From an uncultured Desulfobacterales bacterium (GTDB taxonomy: Bacteria > Desulfobacterota > DSM-4660 > Desulfatiglandales > JALVZP01), in assembly GCA_964513995.1 (NCBI GenBank), contig CAZEOQ010000008.1, positions 8,759 through 72,758 on the forward strand: a stretch of DNA of 64,000 bases, given 5' to 3'. Made by a program: the position numbers and the translations under genes. Position 1 is the stretch's first letter. Each line of letters begins with the position of its first letter. Positions 18,263-47,645 of the stretch are shown one piece after another. The notes under the pieces are model-generated. The model made no database searches. It was not told where the DNA came from and saw only the letters and a list, made by a program, of their open reading frames with translations.

Positions 18263-19604
18263 AAAGCTTTTTTATTTTTTTCATAAAAGAAATTGCTTCT
18301 CCATGTTCTATCTTCATATACTTCCTTTTTCCAATCCCTACTCCATGTTCTCCAGTAGCTGTTCCTCCAAGAAGGATCGCCTTTTCTACTATCCTGTCCT
18401 TTATCTCCTCTATCCTTTTCCACTCCTCTTCATCCTTTTTTCCCATAAATGCAAGATGAAGATTTCCACTTCCTGCATGAGCAAATATATATGAAGGTAT
18501 CTTATATCTTTCTGTCTCCTTTTTTGCAAAAGATACGAGCTCTGGAAATGAGGATATAGGGACAGCAACATCAAGGACTGTATGAATCCTTCCAGGATTT
18601 GCCTTCCTTATTGATTCTCCAAGTGAATATCTTGCTTCCATAATCCTGCTGTATTCCTCTTTTTGAAGTCCTTTTCTGAAGCTTTTGCATCCAGAAGAAA
18701 AGCATATCTCAGAGCAGATCTCCATCTCTTCTTTTATCTGAGAGCTGCTTCCTCCATGAAGTTCAAGAAGGAGTGTAGGAAGGACTGAAAGACCAATTCC
18801 TTTTATCTTGTTTATAACCTTTATACACTCCTGATCCATTATCTCAAGACATGCTGGAATTATCCCTGCTTTTATTATCTGAGTTACTGCCTCTGCACAT
18901 TCTTCTATCTTTTCAAAAGAGGCTATAGCAGATCCTGTATATTCTGGAATCCCTCTAAGTCTTACAGTTGCTTCAACAAATATCCCGAGTGTTCCTTCTG
19001 AACCAACAAAAAGTCTCAGAAGATCATATCCAGATGAACTTTTATTTGCCCTTGTTCCAACATCTATTATACTTCCATCTGCAAGAACAACCCTCAGTCT
19101 CAATACATTATCCCTTGCAGAACCATACCTTAAACTCCTTATCCCACTTGCATTATTTGCTATTATTCCACCAATTGTTGCCCTTGCACCTGGATCTGGT
19201 GGAAAAAAAAGACCTCTGTGTCTCAGTCTATAATTCAGATCCTGATATATTACACCAGGCTGAACATCTGCCTGAAAGTCTTCTTCCCTTATTCTAAGGA
19301 TCCTGTTCATAAGAGTAAAATCAAGGACAATTCCACCAAAAAGAGGAATAGGATTTCCTTCAAGACTTGTTCCTGCTCCCCATGCAGTAACAGGAATCAT
19401 TTTTTTGTTTGCATAAGAAAGTATCTCTGATACTTCTTCTTCTTTTACTGGCCATATAACAACATCTGGAAGACTTTCCCTGTGATGTGATTGATCTAAG
19501 GAATGTAGCTTCAGATTTGACATACCTTGAGAAATCCTTTCTTTTCCAACTATCTTTGAAAGCCTTTTTATGTCTTCCCTGTCTATCTTTTTAAACCTCA
19601 TCAA
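18219..19604 (-). CDS. FAD-linked oxidase (GlcD / D-lactate dehydrogenase family)
   Basis: It has an FAD_binding_4-type N-terminal half (VTAWGAGTSLEGN) and a C-terminal GTATGEHGVGIGKRKYM block typical of GlcD/Dld. Confidence 0.8.
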   Translation of the reverse strand: MMRFKKIDREDIKRLSKIVGKERISQGMSNLKLHSLDQSHHRESLPDVVIWPVKEEEVSEILSYANKKMIPVTAWGAGTSLEGNPIPLFGGIVLDFTLMNRILRIREEDFQADVQPGVIYQDLNYRLRHRGLFFPPDPGARATIGGIIANNASGIRSLRYGSARDNVLRLRVVLADGSIIDVGTRANKSSSGYDLLRLFVGSEGTLGIFVEATVRLRGIPEYTGSAIASFEKIEECAEAVTQIIKAGIIPACLEIMDQECIKVINKIKGIGLSVLPTLLLELHGGSSSQIKEEMEICSEICFSSGCKSFRKGLQKEEYSRIMEARYSLGESIRKANPGRIHTVLDVAVPISSFPELVSFAKKETERYKIPSYIFAHAGSGNLHLAFMGKKDEEEWKRIEEIKDRIVEKAILLGGTATGEHGVGIGKRKYMKIEHGEAISFMKKIKKLFDPNGILNPGKIFP

Positions 19605-32945: not shown

Positions 32946-35303
32946 ATGTCCTATGTTCTTTTTATAGGAAATTCTGAAGAAAAAAGGAATATTTTTTTTG
33001 AGCTATCAAAAGAGCTTCCTATGGAATTTATATCTTCCTTAGACAAACTTCCAGAAAAAAAACCAGATCTTGTTATCTTAGAGGATCTGGAAGTCCTTAA
33101 AAAGATAAGAGAAAAATATAATGACGAACTTCTGCCATTTATTACAGTTGGAAATAATAAGGATCTTATAAAGGAGCAGATAAGGTCTTTTTTAAAGATC
33201 AAAAGATTTTATGATGAGATATTATCTGAACTTAAGCAAAAAAGACAAGAATTACAATGTCTTTTTCAGATCTCAACCCTCAGAGAAAAGACAAATATTA
33301 CCTTGGAAGAAATCACTCAAGAAATAGCAAATATAATATCTTCTTTAAAGCTTTCAGAAGGAAATGAGATATGTGCCAGGATATTTTTGGGATATCAAGA
33401 ATTCAGGTCAGATAATTTCTTTATAACCCCTTGGAAGTATGCAAGTGATATTATCATAGATGGGGAATGGGGAGGAACTATAGAGATTTATTATTCAAAG
33501 AAACCTGAAAGCTTTAAGGAAAAAGACCTTATTGATGCAATAAGTGAAAGGCTTGGAAGGATAGCAGAAAGGTTTAAGGCAGAAGAATCACTGAAATTTG
33601 AAAGCAGAAATATAAAGAACATATTAAATGCAATGAAAGATCTGATCTATAAGGTAAATGAGAATTATGAGATAGAGTATATAAATCCTGCAATGGAAAA
33701 AGAGTTTGGACCTGCAGGTGGAAAGAAGTGTTATGAATATTTTGGAAGAAGAAAGATTTGTGAATCTTGTCCTCTTCCAGAGGTCTTAAAAGGAAAGACT
33801 TTAAGGAGAGAGAGATACTTTGAAGACAGGAAAAAGATATATGATGTATTAGAGACTCCTGTCAGAAATCCTGATGGAACTGTATCAATGCTTTCTATTC
33901 TCAGAGATCTTACAGAACTGAAACGTGCACATATGGATCTTATGGAAAAGGAAGAGCTTCACAGGAAACTGACAGAATCTGTTGCAGATGGCGTTATTCT
34001 TGTGCAGGATGGAAAGATAATATTTGCAAATAAGGCATTTTCAGAAATATTTGAATTTGAAAATACTCAAGAACTTATAGGAACAGAGATAAAATCCTTA
34101 TTTGATAAAGACTTCCATGCACTATGCAAAAAGGTATTTGATCCTTATCTTCTTCCAAATGCAATAGAGCCAACAAACTGGCTTCTTGGAAAGACAAAGA
34201 GGGGGAAAAAGATCTGGGTAGCAATAAACAGAAGTATTATTACTTTAAAATCAAAACCTGCTATCCTTGCAACTTTCAGAGATGTTACAGAACAGGTAAT
34301 GTGGGAGAGAAAGATTCAAGAAGAAACAGAATATTTCAGAAGAGAAACAATAAAACTCAGATCTACTCTAAAGGATAGATACAAATTCGGAGAGCTGATA
34401 GGAAAAAGCCCTGCAATGCAACAGGTATATGAGCTTATTCTTAAGGCAGCAGATTCTGATGCAAGTGTAGTGATCCTTGGAGAATCAGGGACAGGAAAGG
34501 AACTTGTTGCAAGAGCTATACATAAACTTAGCAAAAGGGCTAATAAGCCTTTTATTGCTGTAAACTGTGGAGCAATCCCTGAACAACTTGTAGAAAGTGA
34601 ATTTTTTGGTCATAAAAAAGGATCTTTTACAGGGGCATATACTGACAAGCATGGATATCTTTATGTAGTAAATGGAGGAACACTTTTTTTGGATGAGGTT
34701 GGGGAACTTAATACAAACATTCAGGTAAAATTCTTAAGAGCACTTGAAACAGGAGAATATTCTCCTATAGGAGACACGAATACATATAAGTCAGACTTCA
34801 GGCTTATCTGTGCAACAAACAGAGATCTTGCACAGCTTGTAAGAGAAGGAAAGATGAGGGAAGATTTTTATTACAGAATAAGCGTGATCCCTATCTTCAT
34901 TCCACCACTTAGGGAAAGAAAAGAAGATATTCCTCTCCTTGTAGAACATTTCTTAAAGGTATACAGCAAAGGAAAACATCCTCCAATACTTCCTGCAAAA
35001 TACATGGATCTTCTTATGAGCTATGACTGGCCCGGAAATGTCAGAGAACTTCAGGCAGTAATACAGAGATATCTTGCTGTTGGAACATTTGATTTTATGA
35101 ATAAAAAACTGAATGAACCTTCTGTAGACATAGAAAACTTTTCTTCAAAGAGCCTAAGACAAGCAGTTGATGAATTTGAGAAACAGATTATTCTGAAGAC
35201 ATTAAATCAAAACAGATGGCATAGAGGAAAAACCGCATCTGCACTTGGAATAGATCCTAAGACATTGTATAGAAAGATGAAGAGATATGGAATTTTAGCC
35301 TGA
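32946..35303 (+). CDS. Sigma-54-dependent transcriptional activator (receiver-like N-terminus, GAF-like, two PAS, AAA+, Fis-type HTH)
   Basis: The AAA+ core has [30 protein letters not shown] (the GAFTGA-type loop), LFLDEVGEL and [10 protein letters not shown], and there is a C-terminal HTH ([22 protein letters not shown]). One PAS region carries [15 protein letters not shown]. Confidence 0.88.
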
Positions 35304-35435: not shown

Positions 35436-35451
35436 TGGCATGATTGTTGCA
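35436..35451 (+). promoter_or_regulatory. Sigma-54 (-24/-12) promoter upstream of sat
   Basis: TGGCATG-ATTG-TTGCA matches the consensus TGGCACG-N4-TTGCW with one mismatch and correct GG/GC spacing. It lies about 43 nt upstream of the sat ATG and directly downstream of the sigma-54 activator gene. Confidence 0.6.
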
Positions 35452-35493
35452 TTTTAGAGTAAAAAAAAAGAGAAAAATCTAAGGGGGTAAATA

Positions 35494-39588: not shown

Positions 39589-39607
39589 GAACAGGGCTTA
39601 AATAAAA

Positions 39608-39651
39608 TAACGCCCTGGGCTTAAAAAGCCCAGGGCGTTATACCGTTTTTT
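39608..39651 (+). terminator. Rho-independent terminator/attenuator between aprA and qmoA
   Basis: A 15-bp perfect GC-rich stem (TAACGCCCTGGGCTT / AAGCCCAGGGCGTTA) closes a 3-nt loop and is followed by TACCGTTTTTT. It starts 20 nt after the aprA stop. Confidence 0.8.
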
Positions 39652-43115: not shown

Positions 43116-44261
43116 ATGGCGGTAAAAGTAGATCCTAATTTCGTAAAAGAGCTTGAGGATTTTGGGTTAAAGAAAGATGCTTTAAAGTGTTTTCATTGTG
43201 GAAACTGCACAGCAGTATGCCCTCTTTCTACTGAAGAGAATCCTTTTCCAAGAAGATTTGTAAAATACATTCAGCTTGGGCTAAAGGAAAAGATCCTGAA
43301 AAGTCCAGAACCGTGGCTCTGCTATTACTGTGGTGACTGTTCTGACAGGTGTCCAAGAGGAGCTGATCCTGGTGAAACTATGATGGTTCTTCGCAGGTAT
43401 CTTACATCAGTATATGACTGGACAGGATTTTCAAAAAAGTTTTATACATCAAAAAGCTTTGAAATAATGTCTATATTTTTCGTAGCAATATTTACAGGAA
43501 TTGCACTTTGTCTTTTTCACCTTCCAAATCCAAACCTGAAACATGCTGCAATAAATTCTGTCTGGCCTGCTGAAGCAATAGAAATAGCTGATCTTACTAT
43601 GGCAGCCGTCCTTACATTTTTCCTTATAACAAACGCATACAGATGTGCAAAGTTTATAATGGGTGATCTCCTTTTTAAGATTCCTTTAAACATCTATGTA
43701 AGTCAGGCAAAGGAATTTATCGTTCACTTCTTTACACAAAAAAGATTGAGGGACTGCACTGATAAAAGACAGTGGTTGATCCATTTTCTTATAATGACTG
43801 GATACAGCACTGCATTCCTTCTTGTCGTAGGATTTCTTGCTGGTGGAATAAAGGTCATTGGTCTTGCATGGGAACCAATTAAATTTCAGAGAGATGTAAT
43901 TTATCCTTGGTTTCATCCTATGAGACTTTTTGGATATTATGCAACATTTGCACTCCTTTATGGAACAACATATGCACTTATTGGAAGGATAAAAAAGAGC
44001 AAAGCACCATATAAGAACAGTCATGCAACAGACTGGACATTTCTAATACTTCTTCAGCTTACAACTCTTACTGGAATAATTGTTCACTTTTGCAGACTAC
44101 TTGATCTTCCAATTGCAACATATGTCTTTTATGTCCTTCATCTTATGATTGCTGTTCCTATGCTAATCCTTGAAGTTCCATTTGCAAAATGGGCTCATCT
44201 CGTATACAGACCACTTGTCATATATCTGATGAAGGTAAAAGAGGAATATGAAAGAAGATAG
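43116..44261 (+). CDS. qmoC: QmoC (HdrC-like Fe-S domain fused to HdrE/NarI-like membrane cytochrome b domain)
   Basis: It has N-terminal CFHCGNCTAVCP and CYYCGDCSDRCP motifs, followed by about 6 TM helices. Confidence 0.85.
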   Translation: MAVKVDPNFVKELEDFGLKKDALKCFHCGNCTAVCPLSTEENPFPRRFVKYIQLGLKEKILKSPEPWLCYYCGDCSDRCPRGADPGETMMVLRRYLTSVYDWTGFSKKFYTSKSFEIMSIFFVAIFTGIALCLFHLPNPNLKHAAINSVWPAEAIEIADLTMAAVLTFFLITNAYRCAKFIMGDLLFKIPLNIYVSQAKEFIVHFFTQKRLRDCTDKRQWLIHFLIMTGYSTAFLLVVGFLAGGIKVIGLAWEPIKFQRDVIYPWFHPMRLFGYYATFALLYGTTYALIGRIKKSKAPYKNSHATDWTFLILLQLTTLTGIIVHFCRLLDLPIATYVFYVLHLMIAVPMLILEVPFAKWAHLVYRPLVIYLMKVKEEYERR

Positions 44262-44360
44262 CAGGATGTGCACAGGAATCCTGCCCCCTAAAAACCCCCT
44301 CAGACCACCCTCCTCTACAGTTTTCTCAAAACTTTCCTTCCTTCTGTGCACATCCTGCTA
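44259..44360. repeat. 102-bp C-rich element bounded by a perfect 17-bp inverted repeat, at the qmoC stop codon
   Basis: TAGCAGGATGTGCACAG (44259-44275) is the exact reverse complement of CTGTGCACATCCTGCTA (44344-44360). The 68-nt interior is pyrimidine-rich and includes CCCCCT twice and CCACCCTCCTC. Confidence 0.7.
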
Positions 44361-44414
44361 TTTATGCAAATTCAGAAAAAAATGTCCAGAAAAAAATAAA
44401 ACTGGAGGCAGGTA

Positions 44415-44687
44415 ATGAAAGTAAAAGAACCTCCAACCTGCCCATACTGTGGTTCAAAGATGAAGAAATGGAGACCTCCTCTTAATTCAACCTGGACAGC
44501 AGAATTCAATTGGGTATGTTTTAATGATGAATGTCCTTATTTTGTAAGGGGATGGGATCATCTTCTTAAGACACAAAATGTAAAGGCATCATACAGATAC
44601 ATGATAGATGCAGATACAGGTGTTGCATCTCCTCTTCCATGCTGGTCATATGATGCTCATAAGGATAAGATTATAGAAGATGATTGA
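44415..44687 (+). CDS. Hypothetical zinc-ribbon protein (90 aa)
   Basis: It has an RBS (GGAGG) and the CPYCGSK...CFNDECPYF four-Cys arrangement. It overlaps the next ORF by 8 nt. Confidence 0.6.
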   Translation: MKVKEPPTCPYCGSKMKKWRPPLNSTWTAEFNWVCFNDECPYFVRGWDHLLKTQNVKASYRYMIDADTGVASPLPCWSYDAHKDKIIEDD

Positions 44688-45321
44688 TGAAGAAAAACTT
44701 ATAGCAAAGGCTCTTAAAGAGATTCCATTTGAAAAGAGCTTTATGATAACAAGCCTTCCAGAAGTTGATTATAAGCCTATAAAGAAAATAAAGAAGAAGT
44801 TGGACATAAGGAAAATAACAGGAAAGGATTTTGGTTTGAGATTTATAGACATAGATTCATATGCAAAGATATTTGGTTTAAAAAAGATACCTGATGCAGT
44901 TATGGTAAATGTTTTAAAGACAAAGATAACAGATCCAAAAAACATATATATTGCAGTAAAAAAAGAAGTAAATGAAAGCACTGTTATTCACGAAATAGCT
45001 CATGCACTTGACTATATTGCAGGATCTCAACTTCTTCCTGCACTTGCTCAGGCTCTCTCTTTTGAGTTTTCTATTCCTGTAGAACACCTTGAACACACAC
45101 ACGAATTTGGATACTGGTTTGACTATTTGAGAAAGAGGCTTCATGTAAAACCAGATCCAGAAGATTACATAATCTGCGTTCTTTATGAAAAAGGTCTTCT
45201 TATAAAAGGAGAGGAGATAAGAAAAAGAGATGGAAGTTTATTAAGGAAGAAGTCTGAAGCTATCATAAGGTTTCTTTTAGAAAATTACAACTCCCTCCTT
45301 TCACGTATAAGATCCAAATAA
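44680..45321 (+). CDS. Hypothetical protein with HExxH metallopeptidase-like motif (213 aa)
   Basis: It has a single VIHEIAHALDY motif plus downstream EHLEHTHEFGYW. It is translationally coupled to the zinc-ribbon ORF. I recognised no family. Confidence 0.55.
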   Translation: MIDEEKLIAKALKEIPFEKSFMITSLPEVDYKPIKKIKKKLDIRKITGKDFGLRFIDIDSYAKIFGLKKIPDAVMVNVLKTKITDPKNIYIAVKKEVNESTVIHEIAHALDYIAGSQLLPALAQALSFEFSIPVEHLEHTHEFGYWFDYLRKRLHVKPDPEDYIICVLYEKGLLIKGEEIRKRDGSLLRKKSEAIIRFLLENYNSLLSRIRSK

Positions 45322-45374: not shown

Positions 45375-47516
45375 ATGAAGGTTTCTATAATTATTCCTGT
45401 CTTTAACAAGCTTGAGTATACAAAAAAATGCATAGACGCACTTTACAGAGTAACTCCTAAGTTTCTCTTTGAACTTATTGTCGTAAATAATGGTTCAAAA
45501 GATGGAACAAAGGAGTATCTTGATAGTCTTTCTGCAAAAGTAGAAAATGTGAAAGTCATTCATAACATGAGTAATCTGGGCTTTGCAAAGGCATGCAATC
45601 AGGGAGCAAGGATTGCAAAAGGAAATTATCTTCTATTTTTAAACAATGACACAATCCCTTTAGAAGGATGGCTTGAAGAGCTTATAAAGACTGCTGAGGA
45701 GGAAGAGAAAGTAGGGGTTGTTGGAAGCAAACTCCTTTTTCCAGATGGAAAGATACAGCATGCAGGTGTAGAAGTCTGCGATTATCTTCTTCCTATAACT
45801 CCGTTTCATATATATTACAGAGAACCAGCAGATATTCCTGAAGCAAACATAAAAAAAGAATATCCAGCAGTTACTGGAGCATGTATGCTGACTCCAAAAT
45901 GGCTATTTGATGAGCTTGGAGGATTTGATGAAGGATTCCTTAATGGATTTGAAGATGTAGATTACTGCTTCAGGGTAAAAGAAAAAGGATACAGGATAAT
46001 ATATAATCCAAAAAGTGTTCTGTATCACTTTGAATCAGTAACAGAAGGAAGGTTTAATGCAGTAAAAGAAAATGAGGAAAGGCTTATAAGGAAGTGGAAG
46101 GGGAAGGTAAAAGTCAGAGGGACAAAGGTCTCTGTTGTTATTGTGAATTATAACAGCTGGAAGGATACTGTTCACTGTATAGACTCCCTTGTCAGGAATG
46201 TTGAATATGCAAAGACAAAGATAATTGTTGTAGATAATGGTTCAAAAAAGGAGGATCTTTTGAATCTAAAAAGATGGCTTGAGGAAAAAGGATTTTTAAA
46301 AAGATCAGATTTTGAAAAAGAAGTAGTTCTTTTAGAAACAGGAGAAAATAGAGGATTTGCTGGAGGAAGCAATATAGGGATAAGATATGCCTTAGAAAAA
46401 GGTTCAGAATACATATGGCTGCTTAACTGTGATACTGAAATAGAAAAAAAAGCCTTGGAGAATTCTCTGTATATAGCAGAACTTAAAAAAAATAATGCTG
46501 GAATTGTTGCTTCAAAGATTTACTGCTTTGAAAAAAGAGACATGGTTCAGTTTGATGGAAGATCTGTTCCTTATTATTCAGGAAAAAAAGACAGAAAAGA
46601 TTCTCCTTGCTATATAGAGAAATATGCTCCTTTCTGCAGTGTCCTTATAAGGAGAGAGGTTTTTGAAGATGTAGGTCTTCTGAATGAGGAGTATTTTCTT
46701 TATTTTGAAGATAATGAATTCTGCAAGAGGGTTCTGGAAAAAGGATGGAAAATAATTTATAACCCTTATTCAAAGGTATATCACAAAGGAGGAGCTACAG
46801 TTGGTTCATGGCTGAGGACACCTATAAGCTCATATTATGCAACAAGGAATCTGCTTCTTTTTTATAAAGAAGACATACATGGTTGTTTTGATGCAATCAG
46901 AAGGGACTACTGGAGGGATCTAAAAAAGACAAAGGATTGTTTAAAAGGATTTGTTGAAGGGATTAAGGATTTCCTTGTAGGAAAAAAAGGAAAGGTCGAT
47001 GAAGATGTCTTGCATGTTGATGTATGGAAAGGATGGCCTGATGAAAGATTGAAGGAATCAGCAAAAGGACTTCTTGAAAATCCAACTGAGGAAAACCTGA
47101 CAAGGTTTTTAAGTATGGCTCAGGCTTATCTTATGAAGGACATATCAGAAGAAGATCCAGAATACCTTTATTCTCAAGGAGAAAAACTTTACAGGGAAGG
47201 AAAAACAGAAGAAGCTATAAGTGTTTTTGAAAAGGTTATAAGATTAAATCCAAAACATGCACTTGCATACAACAATCTTGGAGCAATATACTGGCAAAAA
47301 GGAGAAAAGAAAAAAGCTCTTGAGTGCATGATAAAAGCAATGGAAATAGATCCTGAAAATCCTGACATTATATGGAACTCTGGTCAGATACTTATAGGAC
47401 TTGGTCTTGTAAGTGATGCAAGAGAAATTTACGAATTTTATCTGAAAAGGCATTCAGATTCTGAGATGGAAAAATTTATGAAAGTTTTCAACAAATTTTC
47501 AACATCTTTTTGTTGA
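45375..47516 (+). CDS. Bifunctional-looking glycosyltransferase: two tandem GT2 domains plus C-terminal TPR repeats
   Basis: The first GT2 domain has VSIIIPVFNKLEYT...FLNNDT...FEDVDYC. The second has VSVVIVNYNSW...LLNCDT...FEDNEFC. The TPR region has ALAYNNLGAIYWQKGEKKKALECMIKAMEIDP. Confidence 0.85.
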   Translation: MKVSIIIPVFNKLEYTKKCIDALYRVTPKFLFELIVVNNGSKDGTKEYLDSLSAKVENVKVIHNMSNLGFAKACNQGARIAKGNYLLFLNNDTIPLEGWLEELIKTAEEEEKVGVVGSKLLFPDGKIQHAGVEVCDYLLPITPFHIYYREPADIPEANIKKEYPAVTGACMLTPKWLFDELGGFDEGFLNGFEDVDYCFRVKEKGYRIIYNPKSVLYHFESVTEGRFNAVKENEERLIRKWKGKVKVRGTKVSVVIVNYNSWKDTVHCIDSLVRNVEYAKTKIIVVDNGSKKEDLLNLKRWLEEKGFLKRSDFEKEVVLLETGENRGFAGGSNIGIRYALEKGSEYIWLLNCDTEIEKKALENSLYIAELKKNNAGIVASKIYCFEKRDMVQFDGRSVPYYSGKKDRKDSPCYIEKYAPFCSVLIRREVFEDVGLLNEEYFLYFEDNEFCKRVLEKGWKIIYNPYSKVYHKGGATVGSWLRTPISSYYATRNLLLFYKEDIHGCFDAIRRDYWRDLKKTKDCLKGFVEGIKDFLVGKKGKVDEDVLHVDVWKGWPDERLKESAKGLLENPTEENLTRFLSMAQAYLMKDISEEDPEYLYSQGEKLYREGKTEEAISVFEKVIRLNPKHALAYNNLGAIYWQKGEKKKALECMIKAMEIDPENPDIIWNSGQILIGLGLVSDAREIYEFYLKRHSDSEMEKFMKVFNKFSTSFC

Positions 47517-47645
47517 AAAATTCCTTAGCATTTCTAACATGTTATCTTAGTTTTCAACATTTTGACATTCTCTATTATTACTATTATATTTTTTAAAAGT
47601 CTCTATAGAATTATTTTTTTCATAACTGTCAAAATGTTGAAAACT
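47485..47645. promoter_or_regulatory. Cluster of five DnaA-box-like 9-mers and an 18-bp inverted repeat flanking an AT-rich spacer, upstream of dnaN
   Basis: TTTTCAACA occurs at 47485, 47496 and 47551, and its complement TGTTGAAAA at 47511 and 47635. This is 7/9 to TTATCCACA. AGTTTTCAACATTTTGAC (47549-47566) is the exact reverse complement of 47628-47645. Confidence 0.4.

What the first reader, a model, noticed from the sequence alone, without database searches (positions are those of the whole stretch)
44259..44360. C-rich 102-bp element closed by a perfect 17-bp inverted repeat at the qmoC stop; interior complementary to the sat ribosome-binding site
TAGCAGGATGTGCACAG (44259-44275, including the qmoC TAG stop) and CTGTGCACATCCTGCTA (44344-44360) are exact reverse complements. 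They enclose 68 nt of unusually pyrimidine/C-rich sequence (GAATCCTGCCCCCTAAAAACCCCCTCAGACCACCCTCCTCTACAG...). The left arm can alternatively fold locally (CAGGAT/ATCCTG). The interior has two CCCCCU motifs and an anti-Shine-Dalgarno-like CCCUCCUC. The segment AACCCCCUCAGA is complementary to the sat RBS region UCUAAGGGGGUA (35478-35489), giving 10 pairs over the 12-nt duplex. This could simply be a 3' stabiliser or terminator. It could also be a 3'-UTR-derived regulatory RNA that feeds back on SD sequences of the same pathway. The second reading is speculative.
Basis: partly seen in the sequence, partly recalled or inferred. Interest (0 to 1): 0.55.

Follow-up and report, generated by a model that had tools for sequence, protein, structure and literature searches.

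The report
Dead ferredoxin-gene remnant forming a hairpin
The C-rich "element" after qmoC is the decayed remnant of an HdrC-like iron-sulfur gene, left behind when this sulfate reducer swapped its Qmo electron-transfer genes, and its inverted repeat is an RNA stem that already exists inside the intact gene in relatives and outlived the gene.

Summary
There is a perfect 18-bp inverted repeat (44258-44275 / 44344-44361) around 68 nt that is 43% C, starting at the qmoC stop codon.

It is not a dispersed repeat and matches no Rfam family. A covariance model built from it and its one orthologue (L005) hits, at 80-97 bits, inside intact 186-195-aa HdrC-like 2x[4Fe-4S] genes in the closest relatives. 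Those relatives carry qmoA-qmoB-hdrC-hdrB-ogr instead of qmoABC-ogr.
- The arms are the codons of the two Cys motifs (CGMCAGSCP / LLCTSCYSC).
- The "CCCCCU" and "anti-SD" blocks are Ser-Cys-Pro-Leu and Asp-His-Pro-Pro codons.
- The window and L005 copies carry frameshifts, stops and deletions.
- The remnant sits at the junction of a foreign qmoABC cassette and native ogr.

The stem is older than the pseudogene. In intact genes it is 15/15 paired on sense RNA, with G·U wobbles, and shows strong synonymous constraint (p=1.7e-6). In the remnants it became perfect and stayed conserved while neutral sites are near saturation.

The proposed sat-RBS pairing lies in a non-conserved segment and is no better than chance.

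Likely present role, inferred only: an intercistronic 3' stem-loop for qmoABC mRNA.

The parts
43116..44261 (+). qmoC (381 aa, membrane type). It is part of a qmoABC cassette that is foreign to this lineage. Its TAG stop lies inside the left arm.
   Evidence: Window QmoA and QmoB are 61-64% identical to the lineage's own relatives but 76-78.5% identical to L006.
44258..44391 (+). Pseudogene remnant of an HdrC-like ('short QmoC') 2x[4Fe-4S] gene, corresponding to about codons 27-82 of L037. It carries a +1 frameshift (GGAATCC vs GGATCC), a 37-nt internal deletion and a 6-nt insertion in the last Cys motif.
   Evidence: The covariance model hits intact genes at 80-97 bits. Alignments are A4 and A6. 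tblastn places 44266-44388 against L046/L037 HdrC at E = 1e-4, and the shifted frame 44264-44314 reads GCAQESCPLKTPSDHPP.
44258..44275 (+). Left arm of the stem. It derives from the codons C-G-M-C-A-G of the first CxxCxxCxxxCP motif.
44344..44361 (+). Right arm of the stem. It derives from the codons L-C-T-S-C-Y of the second Cys motif.
44280..44289 (+). Conserved block CCTGCCCCCT, which is the codon string (S)-C-P-L. It is invariant in both remnants and in all intact genes examined. Its CCTGC can also pair with GCAGG of the left arm.
44303..44314 (+). Conserved block GACCACCCTCCT, which is the codon string D-H-P-P. It is the 'anti-SD-like' motif. Both remnants share it 12/12; intact genes have GAT-TAC/TTC-CCT-CCT.
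44290..44302 (+). Non-conserved 13-nt spacer.
44319..44333 (+). Small lineage-specific internal hairpin (AGUUUU/AAAACU). The ancestral internal hairpin (CGCCCT/AGGGCG in intact genes, perfect 10 bp in L005) was deleted here.
44373..44397 (+). Direct repeat CAGAAAAAAAT x2 inside the decayed second Cys motif (C-K-F-R-K-K-C-P, against C-x-V-R-C-P in intact genes).
44248..44415 (+). 55-aa ORF spanning the remnant and ending in TAATG, which overlaps the ogr start codon. It is not conserved in L005 and is probably a chance ORF.
44415..44687 (+). Ogr/Delta-like zinc-finger gene, native to the lineage (88% identical to L032). Its GGAGG ribosome-binding site is at 44404-44408.
39607..39641 (+). Canonical terminator-like hairpin between aprA and qmoA. 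It marks the left boundary region of the foreign qmoABC cassette.
   Evidence: Window AprA is 82-87% identical to the HdrC-type relatives.
35478..35489 (+). sat ribosome-binding region proposed as the target. The complementarity is at chance level.

Best explanation
The element is a roughly 135-nt decayed fragment of an HdrC-like 2x[4Fe-4S] ferredoxin gene (a 'short QmoC').

Origin. This lineage's relatives carry aprA-qmoA-qmoB-hdrC-hdrB-ogr. In the ancestor of the window organism and of L005, a foreign qmoABC cassette with a membrane QmoC replaced qmoAB, and hdrC-hdrB was destroyed. Only the stretch encoding the two cysteine motifs survived, between qmoC and the native ogr gene. The two arms are the codons of those motifs. 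The C-rich blocks are Ser-Cys-Pro-Leu and Asp-His-Pro-Pro codons.

The stem. It pre-dates the pseudogene. In intact genes the two motif-coding segments already pair 15/15 (17 contiguous pairs when G·U is allowed) on the sense RNA, using G·U wobbles where perfect pairing would change an amino acid. Once coding constraint was lifted, the two G·U pairs became A-U, giving a perfect repeat.

Inferred, not shown. The retained hairpin now acts on the qmoABC-ogr transcript as an intercistronic 3' stem-loop. It would protect or process the qmoABC segment and uncouple ogr, which in relatives overlaps the upstream gene. It would not act as an sRNA against sat.

My confidence is about 0.9 for the origin and about 0.4 for the present RNA role.
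For: Homology to the intact gene.
- Model R1, built from the window and L005 copies, hits inside the HdrC-like gene of L031/32/33/37/38/41/42 at 80-84 bits. It also hits L043/44/45/46/47, at 83-97 bits. E-values are 1e-17 to 1e-21.
- The alignment runs along the whole element.
- The L037 gene translates as ...CMQCGMCAGSCPLRHHMDFPPRK...LLCTSCYSCMVRCPRG.
- tblastn recovers ACPLRHHMDHPP and TISKSKPILLCISCYSYK from L005 in two frames (E = 3.5e-6). From the window it recovers MCTGILPP...FLLCTSCYLCKFRKKCP (E = 1e-4).
- No HdrB (CCG-domain) remnant is detectable.

Mosaic locus.
- Window AprA is 82-87% identical to the HdrC-type relatives, Ogr 74-88% and p213 (the 213-aa product of the gene downstream of ogr, 44680-45321) 56-60%.
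- Window QmoA and QmoB are only 61-64% identical to them, although those relatives are 84-87% identical to each other.
- Window QmoA and QmoB are 76-78.5% identical to L006, whose Ogr and p213 are only 63% and 42% identical.

The stem in intact genes.
- It is 100% paired in 8 distinct sequences. Four pairs vary on one side (G·U to A-U, C-G to U·G) and one pair changes on both sides.
- A 17-nt contiguous stem is present in all 5 intact genes, against 9-13 nt in six QmoC N-terminal controls.
- Among codons with a conserved amino acid and degenerate codons, 12/13 in the arms are invariant at the nucleotide level, against 17/78 elsewhere (Fisher p = 1.7e-6).
- The predicted folds share one architecture.

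Constraint in the remnants.
- Four-fold sites of qmoC between the window and L005 are 52% identical (63/121). Those of ogr and p213 are 44-48% identical.
- The arms are 14/15 identical on each side with a compensated change. The two blocks are 22/22 identical with a conserved 13-nt spacing. By my count on A3, the rest of the interior is about 43% identical.

Copy number and known families.
- There is a single copy in the window, and the next best model hit is 15 bits.
- The element is identical in all contigs of the species.
- There is no Rfam match and no plasmid or phage match.
Against: No expression, 3'-end or cleavage data exist, so the RNA role is pure inference.

Perfecting and maintenance of the inverted repeat, including the 'compensatory' changes, can also arise without selection. 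Template switching between quasi-palindrome arms during replication does this (PMC8794818, PMC7202029).

Many wobble-compatible synonymous changes in the arms are not seen. The constraint may therefore be on sequence or DNA rather than on RNA pairing.

Only two remnant lineages and five to six distinct intact sequences were available.

The rest of the window organism's genome could not be searched, so a few additional copies cannot be excluded.

Ogr identities (L005-L046 90%, window-L032 88%, window-L005 80%) suggest the two remnant-bearing lineages may not be sisters. The history of the cassette may therefore involve more than one transfer.

The function of the two conserved single-stranded blocks is unexplained by a simple stabiliser model.
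Confidence: 0.6

Rival explanations
1. Neutral scar. The remnant has no present function. Its inverted repeat is kept perfect, and its changes look compensatory, only because replication template switching between the arms homogenises quasi-palindromes. The conserved blocks reflect low local mutation or chance.
For: Template switching is documented to create and maintain hairpins and to make imperfect repeats perfect (PMC8794818, PMC7202029).

Both the outer stem and the L005 inner hairpin became perfect once coding constraint was lost.

The window lost the inner hairpin altogether through a 37-nt deletion.

Other close relatives manage with no spacer at all between the upstream gene and ogr.
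Against: Template switching does not explain the 22/22 identity of the two single-stranded blocks, or their fixed 13-nt spacing, when four-fold sites are 44-52% identical.

In intact genes the arms tolerate only sense-strand wobble variants.

The arms also show synonymous constraint at p = 1.7e-6.
Confidence: 0.25
2. Regulatory RNA with C-rich seeds. The stem-loop, released from the qmoABC 3' end or acting in cis, uses the unpaired CCUGCCCCCU and GACCACCCUCCU blocks to pair with Shine-Dalgarno regions. Candidates are ogr and sat. This would resemble the C-rich sRNAs RsaE/RoxS.
For: The two C-rich blocks are predicted to be unpaired and are perfectly conserved between the two remnants.

CCUGCC is complementary to GGCAGG in the window's ogr ribosome-binding site (8 of 9 pairs).

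CCCUCCU is complementary to AGGAGGG in the L005 ogr ribosome-binding site.

Block 3 resembles the 16S 3' end GAUCACCUCCUU (from general knowledge, not tested here).
Against: The blocks are simply Cys/Pro codons inherited from the gene.

The specific sat duplex lies in the non-conserved spacer and is at chance level.

Any C-rich RNA pairs with purine-rich ribosome-binding sites, and sat ranks 5th of 57.

The cis pairings proposed for the window and for L005 use different blocks.

There is no canonical terminator to define an sRNA 3' end.

No homologue was found elsewhere.
Confidence: 0.1
3. Small protein. The 55-aa ORF 44248-44415 (MKEDSRMCTGILPP...LLCTSCYLCKFRKKCPEKNKTGGR) is translated. It would couple qmoC to ogr through overlapping stop and start codons (TAATG), and the nucleic-acid features would be incidental.
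For: The ORF spans the whole spacer. AGAGGA lies just upstream of its ATG. It ends in TAATG on the ogr start codon and retains a CxxCxxC...CP motif.
Against: It is not conserved. L005 has stops in every frame across the homologous region, and its best frame reads MHRACPLRHHMDHPPS*.

The ORF crosses a frameshift relative to the ancestral protein, so half of it is out-of-frame sequence.

The 18-bp stem would have to be melted for translation.
Confidence: 0.04
4. Mobile miniature inverted-repeat element (MITE/REP-like) inserted at a TA at the qmoC stop.
For: The structure has terminal inverted repeats, and in the window TA flanks both arms (TA-GCAGG...CCTGC-TA).
Against: There is no second copy in 64 kb, even with a covariance model and filters off.

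There are no copies at other positions in about 135 kb of related loci.

There is no TA duplication in L005.

There is full-length homology to a chromosomal coding sequence at the syntenic position.

There is no plasmid or phage match.
Confidence: 0.01

Closest known systems
Alternative Qmo modules: QmoABC (membrane QmoC, an HdrC-like FeS domain fused to an HdrE-like cytochrome b) versus QmoAB-HdrBC/HdrD. Described in Ramos et al. 2012 (PMC3333476) and Neukirchen et al. 2023 (PMC10504309).
   Same: The locus and its relatives show exactly these two known arrangements. The intact homologue of the element is the HdrC-like subunit, followed by a CCG-domain (HdrB-like) subunit. The ISME J paper reports QmoAB-HdrBC in 'some Deltaproteobacteria'.
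   Different: Here both arrangements occur within one narrow clade. A physical scar of the replaced hdrC gene marks the swap. I found no description of such a scar, or of an RNA stem inside hdrC-like genes.
Hairpins created and maintained by replication template switching / quasi-palindrome correction (Monttinen & Loytynoja 2022, PMC8794818; Klaric et al. 2020, PMC7202029).
   Same: An imperfect inverted repeat became perfect. Paired 'compensatory' changes appear in both the outer stem and the L005 inner hairpin.
   Different: Whether template switching or selection did this cannot be decided here. In the intact genes the imperfections are held by amino-acid constraint and are all G·U on the sense strand.
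Intercistronic or 3' stem-loop mRNA stabilisers in polycistronic operons, for example REP hairpins in malEFG and the puf operon hairpins (from general knowledge).
   Same: The stem is stable, sits directly after the stop codon of an upstream cistron, lies within a probable operon and lacks a strong U-tract.
   Different: The stem closes a 68-98-nt loop instead of a tight hairpin. It is single-copy, derives from coding sequence and has no experimental support.
C-rich Shine-Dalgarno-targeting sRNAs (RsaE/RoxS type) and 3'-UTR-derived sRNAs (from general knowledge).
   Same: It has unpaired C-rich motifs at the 3' end of a metabolic operon.
   Different: There is no Rfam match. There is no defined terminator. 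The proposed target pairing is not conserved and is at chance level. The C-runs are inherited codons.

Membership tests
Pseudogene remnant of an HdrC-like / short-QmoC 2x[4Fe-4S] gene | Nucleotide homology to intact genes along the element, not only in the arms | tested here: met
   Model hits are 80-97 bits at E = 1e-17 to 1e-21. The alignment includes the interior blocks and, for L005, the inner hairpin and the distal linker.
Pseudogene remnant of an HdrC-like / short-QmoC 2x[4Fe-4S] gene | Protein-level similarity recoverable in shifted frames, with the reading frame disrupted | tested here: met
   tblastn recovers L005 ACPLRHHMDHPP and TISKSKPILLCISCYSYK, and window FLLCTSCYLCKFRKKCP and SCPLKTPSDHPP. 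There are +1 and -1 frameshifts, stops and a 37-nt deletion.
Pseudogene remnant of an HdrC-like / short-QmoC 2x[4Fe-4S] gene | Syntenic position | tested here: met
   The element lies between the qmo genes and ogr-p213-GT (the large glycosyltransferase gene, 45375-47516), where the intact hdrC-hdrB genes lie in L031-L047.
Intrinsic (Rho-independent) terminator | Short G+C-rich hairpin with a small loop, followed directly by a U-run | tested here: not met
   The scan does not list it, although it lists the aprA hairpin. The loop is 68 nt and the tail is UAUUUAUG.
MITE / REP-like dispersed repeat | Multiple dispersed copies in the genome | tested here: inconclusive
   There is no second copy in the 64 kb window or in related loci outside the hdrC position. 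The genome and metagenome pattern scans returned only chance hits in GC-rich DNA and did not contain this organism.
MITE / REP-like dispersed repeat | Target-site duplication flanking the terminal repeats | tested here: not met
   TA flanks both arms in the window, but it is also part of the palindrome. L005 has AG on the left and TA on the right.
C-rich SD-targeting sRNA / 3'-UTR-derived sRNA | Conserved complementarity to the proposed target (sat RBS) | tested here: not met
   The pairing segment is replaced by TAGGCACCACATG in L005. The window has 3 such matches against 5.5 expected.
C-rich SD-targeting sRNA / 3'-UTR-derived sRNA | A discrete stable transcript with a defined 3' end | not testable with these tools
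   No transcriptome data are available for this uncultured MAG.
Any Rfam family | Covariance-model score at or near the gathering threshold | tested here: not met
   Nothing was found at gathering score. Only spurious miRNA-type hits appeared at E of 0.02 or higher. Nothing was found for the intact-gene version.
Functional RNA structure embedded in a coding sequence | Excess synonymous constraint coinciding with a conserved pairing | tested here: met
   12/13 arm codons are invariant against 17/78 elsewhere (p = 1.7e-6). The stem is 100% paired in 8 distinct sequences with wobble substitutions. Only 5 intact sequences were available.
RNase III-type processing stem / intercistronic stabiliser | About two helical turns of dsRNA, plus evidence of cleavage or a protected 3' end | not testable with these tools
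   The predicted helix is 18-22 bp in the window. No biochemical or transcript data exist.

The most novel reading that the evidence does not exclude
The stem-loop is an autonomous functional RNA module. It evolved inside the coding sequence of HdrC-like genes, with its arms superimposed on the two Fe-S cysteine motifs. It was selectively retained as a free-standing element when the gene itself was destroyed by a Qmo module swap. In this reading its conserved C-rich loops are binding sites for a protein, for ribosome-binding regions or for another RNA. They would control processing or translation of the sulfate-reduction operon and the downstream ogr-p213 genes.
Probability: 0.25. Interest if true: 0.65.

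Novelty: new member of a known kind. Interest (0 to 1): 0.4.

Why it matters
First, it corrects a tempting misreading. A conspicuous C-rich, 'anti-SD-like' hairpin next to a key metabolic operon turns out to be made of old Cys and Pro codons. It is not a designed seed sequence.

Second, the scar pins down the right-hand junction of a recent exchange of the soluble QmoAB-HdrCB module for the membrane-bound QmoABC module, inside one clade that includes hydrothermal-vent metagenome sequences. This gives a natural pair of otherwise similar organisms. They could be compared to study how APS reduction is coupled to the quinone pool, which the literature treats as unresolved (PMC3333476, PMC10504309).

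Third, the pairing between the two cysteine-motif coding segments carries strong synonymous constraint in intact genes and survived the death of the gene. It is therefore a candidate for a coding-embedded RNA structure in bacteria, or a clean example of a self-maintaining inverted repeat.

Tried and rejected
- Rfam. The whole window at gathering score, and the element, L005 and the intact-gene version at E-value thresholds, gave nothing real.
- Dispersed-repeat test. The arm with up to 3 mismatches, and a covariance model with filters off on the window, found only the element itself.
- Public-collection pattern scans with CCTGCCCCCTN{8,18}GACCACCCTCC. Genome contigs gave 2 hits and metagenome contigs gave 15. 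All were chance matches in 51-74% GC DNA, and neither collection held the window organism.
- blastn against the plasmid and phage collections found no match.
- Two independent palindromic operators (TGTGCACA x2). Rejected because L005 breaks each palindrome (TATGCACA / TGTGCATA) while keeping the complementarity between the arms.
- Minus-strand gene or ORF. The 62-aa GTG ORF and the short ORFs after the G-rich SD-like runs are not conserved.
- Rho utilisation site (a C-rich, G-poor loop). Considered, but it does not explain the exact conservation of the blocks, and L005's distal interior is AT-rich.
- Complements of the conserved blocks elsewhere in the window. No enrichment.
- HdrB (CCG-domain) remnant in the spacer. 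None detected.
- Removing 'TA + element' puts qmoC in frame with the ogr TAATG. I judged this coincidental, because the resulting protein would be longer than all homologues.
Full report
**1. The observation**

The sequence is as described. A perfect inverted repeat has arms at 44258-44275 and 44344-44361, which is 18 nt, one more than reported, with 68 nt between the arms. The TAG inside the left arm is the stop codon of the 381-aa ORF at 43116-44261. Its product hits only 4Fe-4S dicluster (Fer4) Pfam families, and sources name close homologues QmoC.

The interior is 43% C and 6% G, in a window of 36.5% GC. The region folds at -36.6 kcal/mol against -13.5 +/- 2.6 for shuffles (z = -8.7). The local CAGGAT/ATCCTG pairing, the two CCCCCT motifs, the CCCTCCTC motif and the 10-of-12 match to the sat ribosome-binding region all check out.

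The surrounding genes run in this order:
- a sigma-54 activator gene
- sat, a DUF6955 gene, aprB and aprA
- a canonical terminator-like hairpin at 39607-39641
- qmoA, qmoB and qmoC
- the element
- an Ogr/Delta-like zinc-finger gene (ogr, 44415-44687)
- a 213-aa gene (p213)
- a GT2-TPR glycosyltransferase gene (GT)
- dnaN

**2. Not a repeat family, and not a known RNA**

The arm occurs nowhere else in the window, apart from one 3-mismatch hit at 18891-18907. Rfam gives nothing, either at gathering score or at permissive E-values. The plasmid and phage collections give no match. All five contigs of the same species carry an identical element.

**3. One orthologue, conserved well beyond neutrality**

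The nearest QmoC (80% identical, Logan contig L005) has a homologous element in the same spacer.
- Its arms are GCAGGATATGCACAGG / CCTGTGCATATCCTGC. This is a compensated G-C to A-U change relative to the window.
- It has identical blocks CCTGCCCCCT and GACCACCCTCCT with the same 13-nt spacing.
- The rest of its interior is unalignable.

Four-fold degenerate sites of qmoC between the two organisms are only 52% identical (63/121). Those of ogr and p213 are 44-48% identical. The arms and the two blocks, with 50 of 52 positions identical, are therefore not drifting neutrally.

In the window, matches of that quality are no more frequent than chance, at 3 against 5.5 expected. In a crude duplex ranking sat is 5th of 57 ribosome-binding sites.

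Other relatives have no element:
- L006-8 have a 3-nt qmoC-ogr spacer.
- L009, L027 and L028 have ordinary terminator-like hairpins.

**4. What it is**

I built a covariance model from the two copies. It found no second copy in the window with filters off; the next best hit was 15 bits. It did hit, at 80-97 bits, inside a protein-coding gene in every locus retrieved through the closest Ogr homologues and through that gene's own homologues.

That gene encodes a 186-195-aa HdrC-like 2x[4Fe-4S] protein. It lies directly after qmoB and is followed by a CCG-domain (HdrB-like) gene and ogr. This is the known QmoAB-HdrCB arrangement (PMC10504309, PMC3333476).

The L037 protein reads ...CMQCGMCAGSCPLRHHMDFPPRKIFALLRAGEIEKVLNSKSILLCTSCYSCMVRCPRG.... 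The element maps onto it as follows:
- The left arm is the codons of CGMCAG.
- CCTGCCCCCT is (S)CPL.
- GACCACCCTCCT is D-H-P-P. Intact genes have D-Y/F-P-P.
- The right arm is LCTSCY.
- The CAGGAT/ATCCTG palindrome is GCA-GGA-TCC-TGC (A-G-S-C).

tblastn recovers the protein similarity from both remnants in shifted frames. The window copy has a +1 frameshift, a 37-nt deletion and a 6-nt insertion. L005 has a -1 frameshift and stops. No trace of hdrB remains. The C-richness and the 'anti-Shine-Dalgarno' motif are therefore fossil Cys, Pro and Ser codons.

**5. Why the remnant is there**

The locus is a mosaic. The figures below are protein identities to the window organism.

| Protein | HdrC-type relatives | L006 (membrane QmoC type) |
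|---|---|---|
| AprA | 82-87% | not compared |
| QmoA, QmoB | 61-64% | 76-78.5% |
| Ogr | 74-88% | 63% |
| p213 | 56-60% | 42% |

The QmoB proteins of the HdrC-type relatives are 84-87% identical to each other, so the low QmoA/QmoB values are specific to the window lineage.

A foreign qmoABC cassette therefore replaced the native qmoAB(-hdrCB). The remnant sits at the right-hand junction, between foreign qmoC and native ogr. The left-hand junction lies between aprA and qmoA. In the window the qmoC stop codon lies within the remnant's left arm, and the window QmoC is 2-6 residues shorter at its C-terminus than L005 and L006.

**6. The stem is older than the pseudogene**

In the intact genes the two motif-coding segments already pair.
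- There are 17 contiguous pairs in all five intact genes, against 9-13 in six QmoC N-terminal controls.
- Pairing is 15/15 across all eight distinct sequences.
- The two positions that are not Watson-Crick are G·U on the sense strand. Making them perfect would change Gly to Arg and Ala to Thr.
- The only variants seen in intact genes (TGC to TGT, twice) give U·G.

Among codon columns with a conserved residue and degenerate codons, 12/13 in the arms are invariant at the nucleotide level, against 17/78 elsewhere (Fisher p = 1.7e-6).

Predicted folds of intact genes and remnants share one architecture: a long closing stem, an unpaired C-rich 5' segment and an inner hairpin. In the remnants both G·U pairs became A-U. 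In L005 the inner hairpin became a perfect 10-bp stem; two of the six ancestral stem pairs carry double changes, and reading the alignment I count a third in the extended stem.

**7. How it most likely works now**

Shown:
- the origin
- the junction position
- the conservation of the stem and blocks
- the single copy in all the sequence available

Inferred: because ogr overlaps or abuts the upstream gene in relatives, and because no promoter-like site lies in the 53 nt before the window's ogr, ogr is probably co-transcribed with qmoABC. The hairpin would then be an intercistronic 3' stem-loop that protects or processes the qmoABC part of the transcript.

It is not a canonical intrinsic terminator.

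The main rival is a neutral scar whose repeat is kept perfect by replication template switching (PMC8794818, PMC7202029). That accounts for the perfecting and for the paired changes. It does not readily account for the two conserved single-stranded blocks, or for the sense-strand wobble pattern.

A generalised 'C-rich seed' RNA remains possible but lacks specific support. A 55-aa ORF spans the remnant (44248-44415, ending in TAATG on the ogr start). It is not conserved in L005.

**8. Comparison and verdict**

The element meets all the criteria tested for a pseudogene remnant of an HdrC-like gene. It fails those tested for an intrinsic terminator, for a target-site duplication and for conserved sat targeting.

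The cautious interpretation is plausible and the sRNA-sat idea is unsupported. The ordinary part is that this is a gene remnant. Three things seem worth keeping:
- the documented QmoAB-HdrCB to QmoABC swap within one clade
- a coding-embedded stem with strong synonymous constraint
- the persistence of that stem after the gene died

**9. Limits**

- Only two remnant lineages and five to six distinct intact sequences were available.
- The rest of this MAG could not be searched.
- The two large pattern scans returned only chance hits and did not include the organism.
- No transcript data exist.

Noticed in passing
window 35436-35451 (and gene 32946-35303): TGGCATGATTGTTGCA is a near-perfect sigma-54 -24/-12 promoter. 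It is the only match to TGGCAYN5TTGCW in 64 kb, against 0.09 expected. It lies about 27 nt upstream of the sat ribosome-binding region (35478-35489). A PAS + sigma-54-activator + HTH_8 gene sits directly upstream. The sat-aprBA operon may therefore be sigma-54-dependent in this organism.
   Followed up: partly
window 47485-47645: Five copies of TTTTCAACA (12 in the window against 2.1 expected) cluster around a perfect 19-nt inverted repeat (47549-47567 / 47627-47645). That repeat brackets a TTGACA-17-TATATT promoter-like site just upstream of dnaN. This may be a DnaA-box-like or origin-proximal control region.
   Followed up: partly
window 45375-47516 vs L001 12206-12508: The 713-aa GT2+TPR glycosyltransferase gene lies between p213 and dnaN in the window and in L002. 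It is absent from L001, a MAG with an identical QmoC. It is a strain-variable gene.
   Followed up: no
window 39607-39641; L031/L032/L033/L037/L043/L046 aprA-qmoA spacers: A G+C-rich terminator-like hairpin follows aprA in every relative. Its sequence differs in each lineage, so it is conserved in position and structure but not in sequence.
   Followed up: partly
L032 4545-4800: The hdrC-like gene of L032 is called only from 4800. The homologous stretch has a C8 run where L031 has C7. This is a frameshift that could be a sequencing error or a real inactivation.
   Followed up: no
L035 1-105, L036 1-107: These contigs encode the Ogr proteins most similar to the window's (89%). The sequence directly upstream of ogr resembles neither a QmoC nor a CCG-protein C-terminus. 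They may represent a third arrangement, but the contigs are too short to tell.
   Followed up: partly
window 44415-45321 and all related loci: An Ogr/Delta-like zinc-finger gene (about 89 aa) plus a gene of about 220 aa follows the Qmo genes in most of the related loci retrieved (L027 has an NDK gene there instead), whichever Qmo module is present. The first often overlaps the upstream gene. In the QmoC-type loci (L006-L009, L028-L030) the second gene carries a SEC-C motif. This looks like an uncharacterised accessory pair of the APS-reduction locus.
   Followed up: no
L005 1320-1328 vs 1386-1394: In L005 the spacer between the qmoC stop and the remnant contains AGGGTGGTC. This is perfectly complementary to GACCACCCT, the conserved block 3. 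No counterpart exists in the window.
   Followed up: partly
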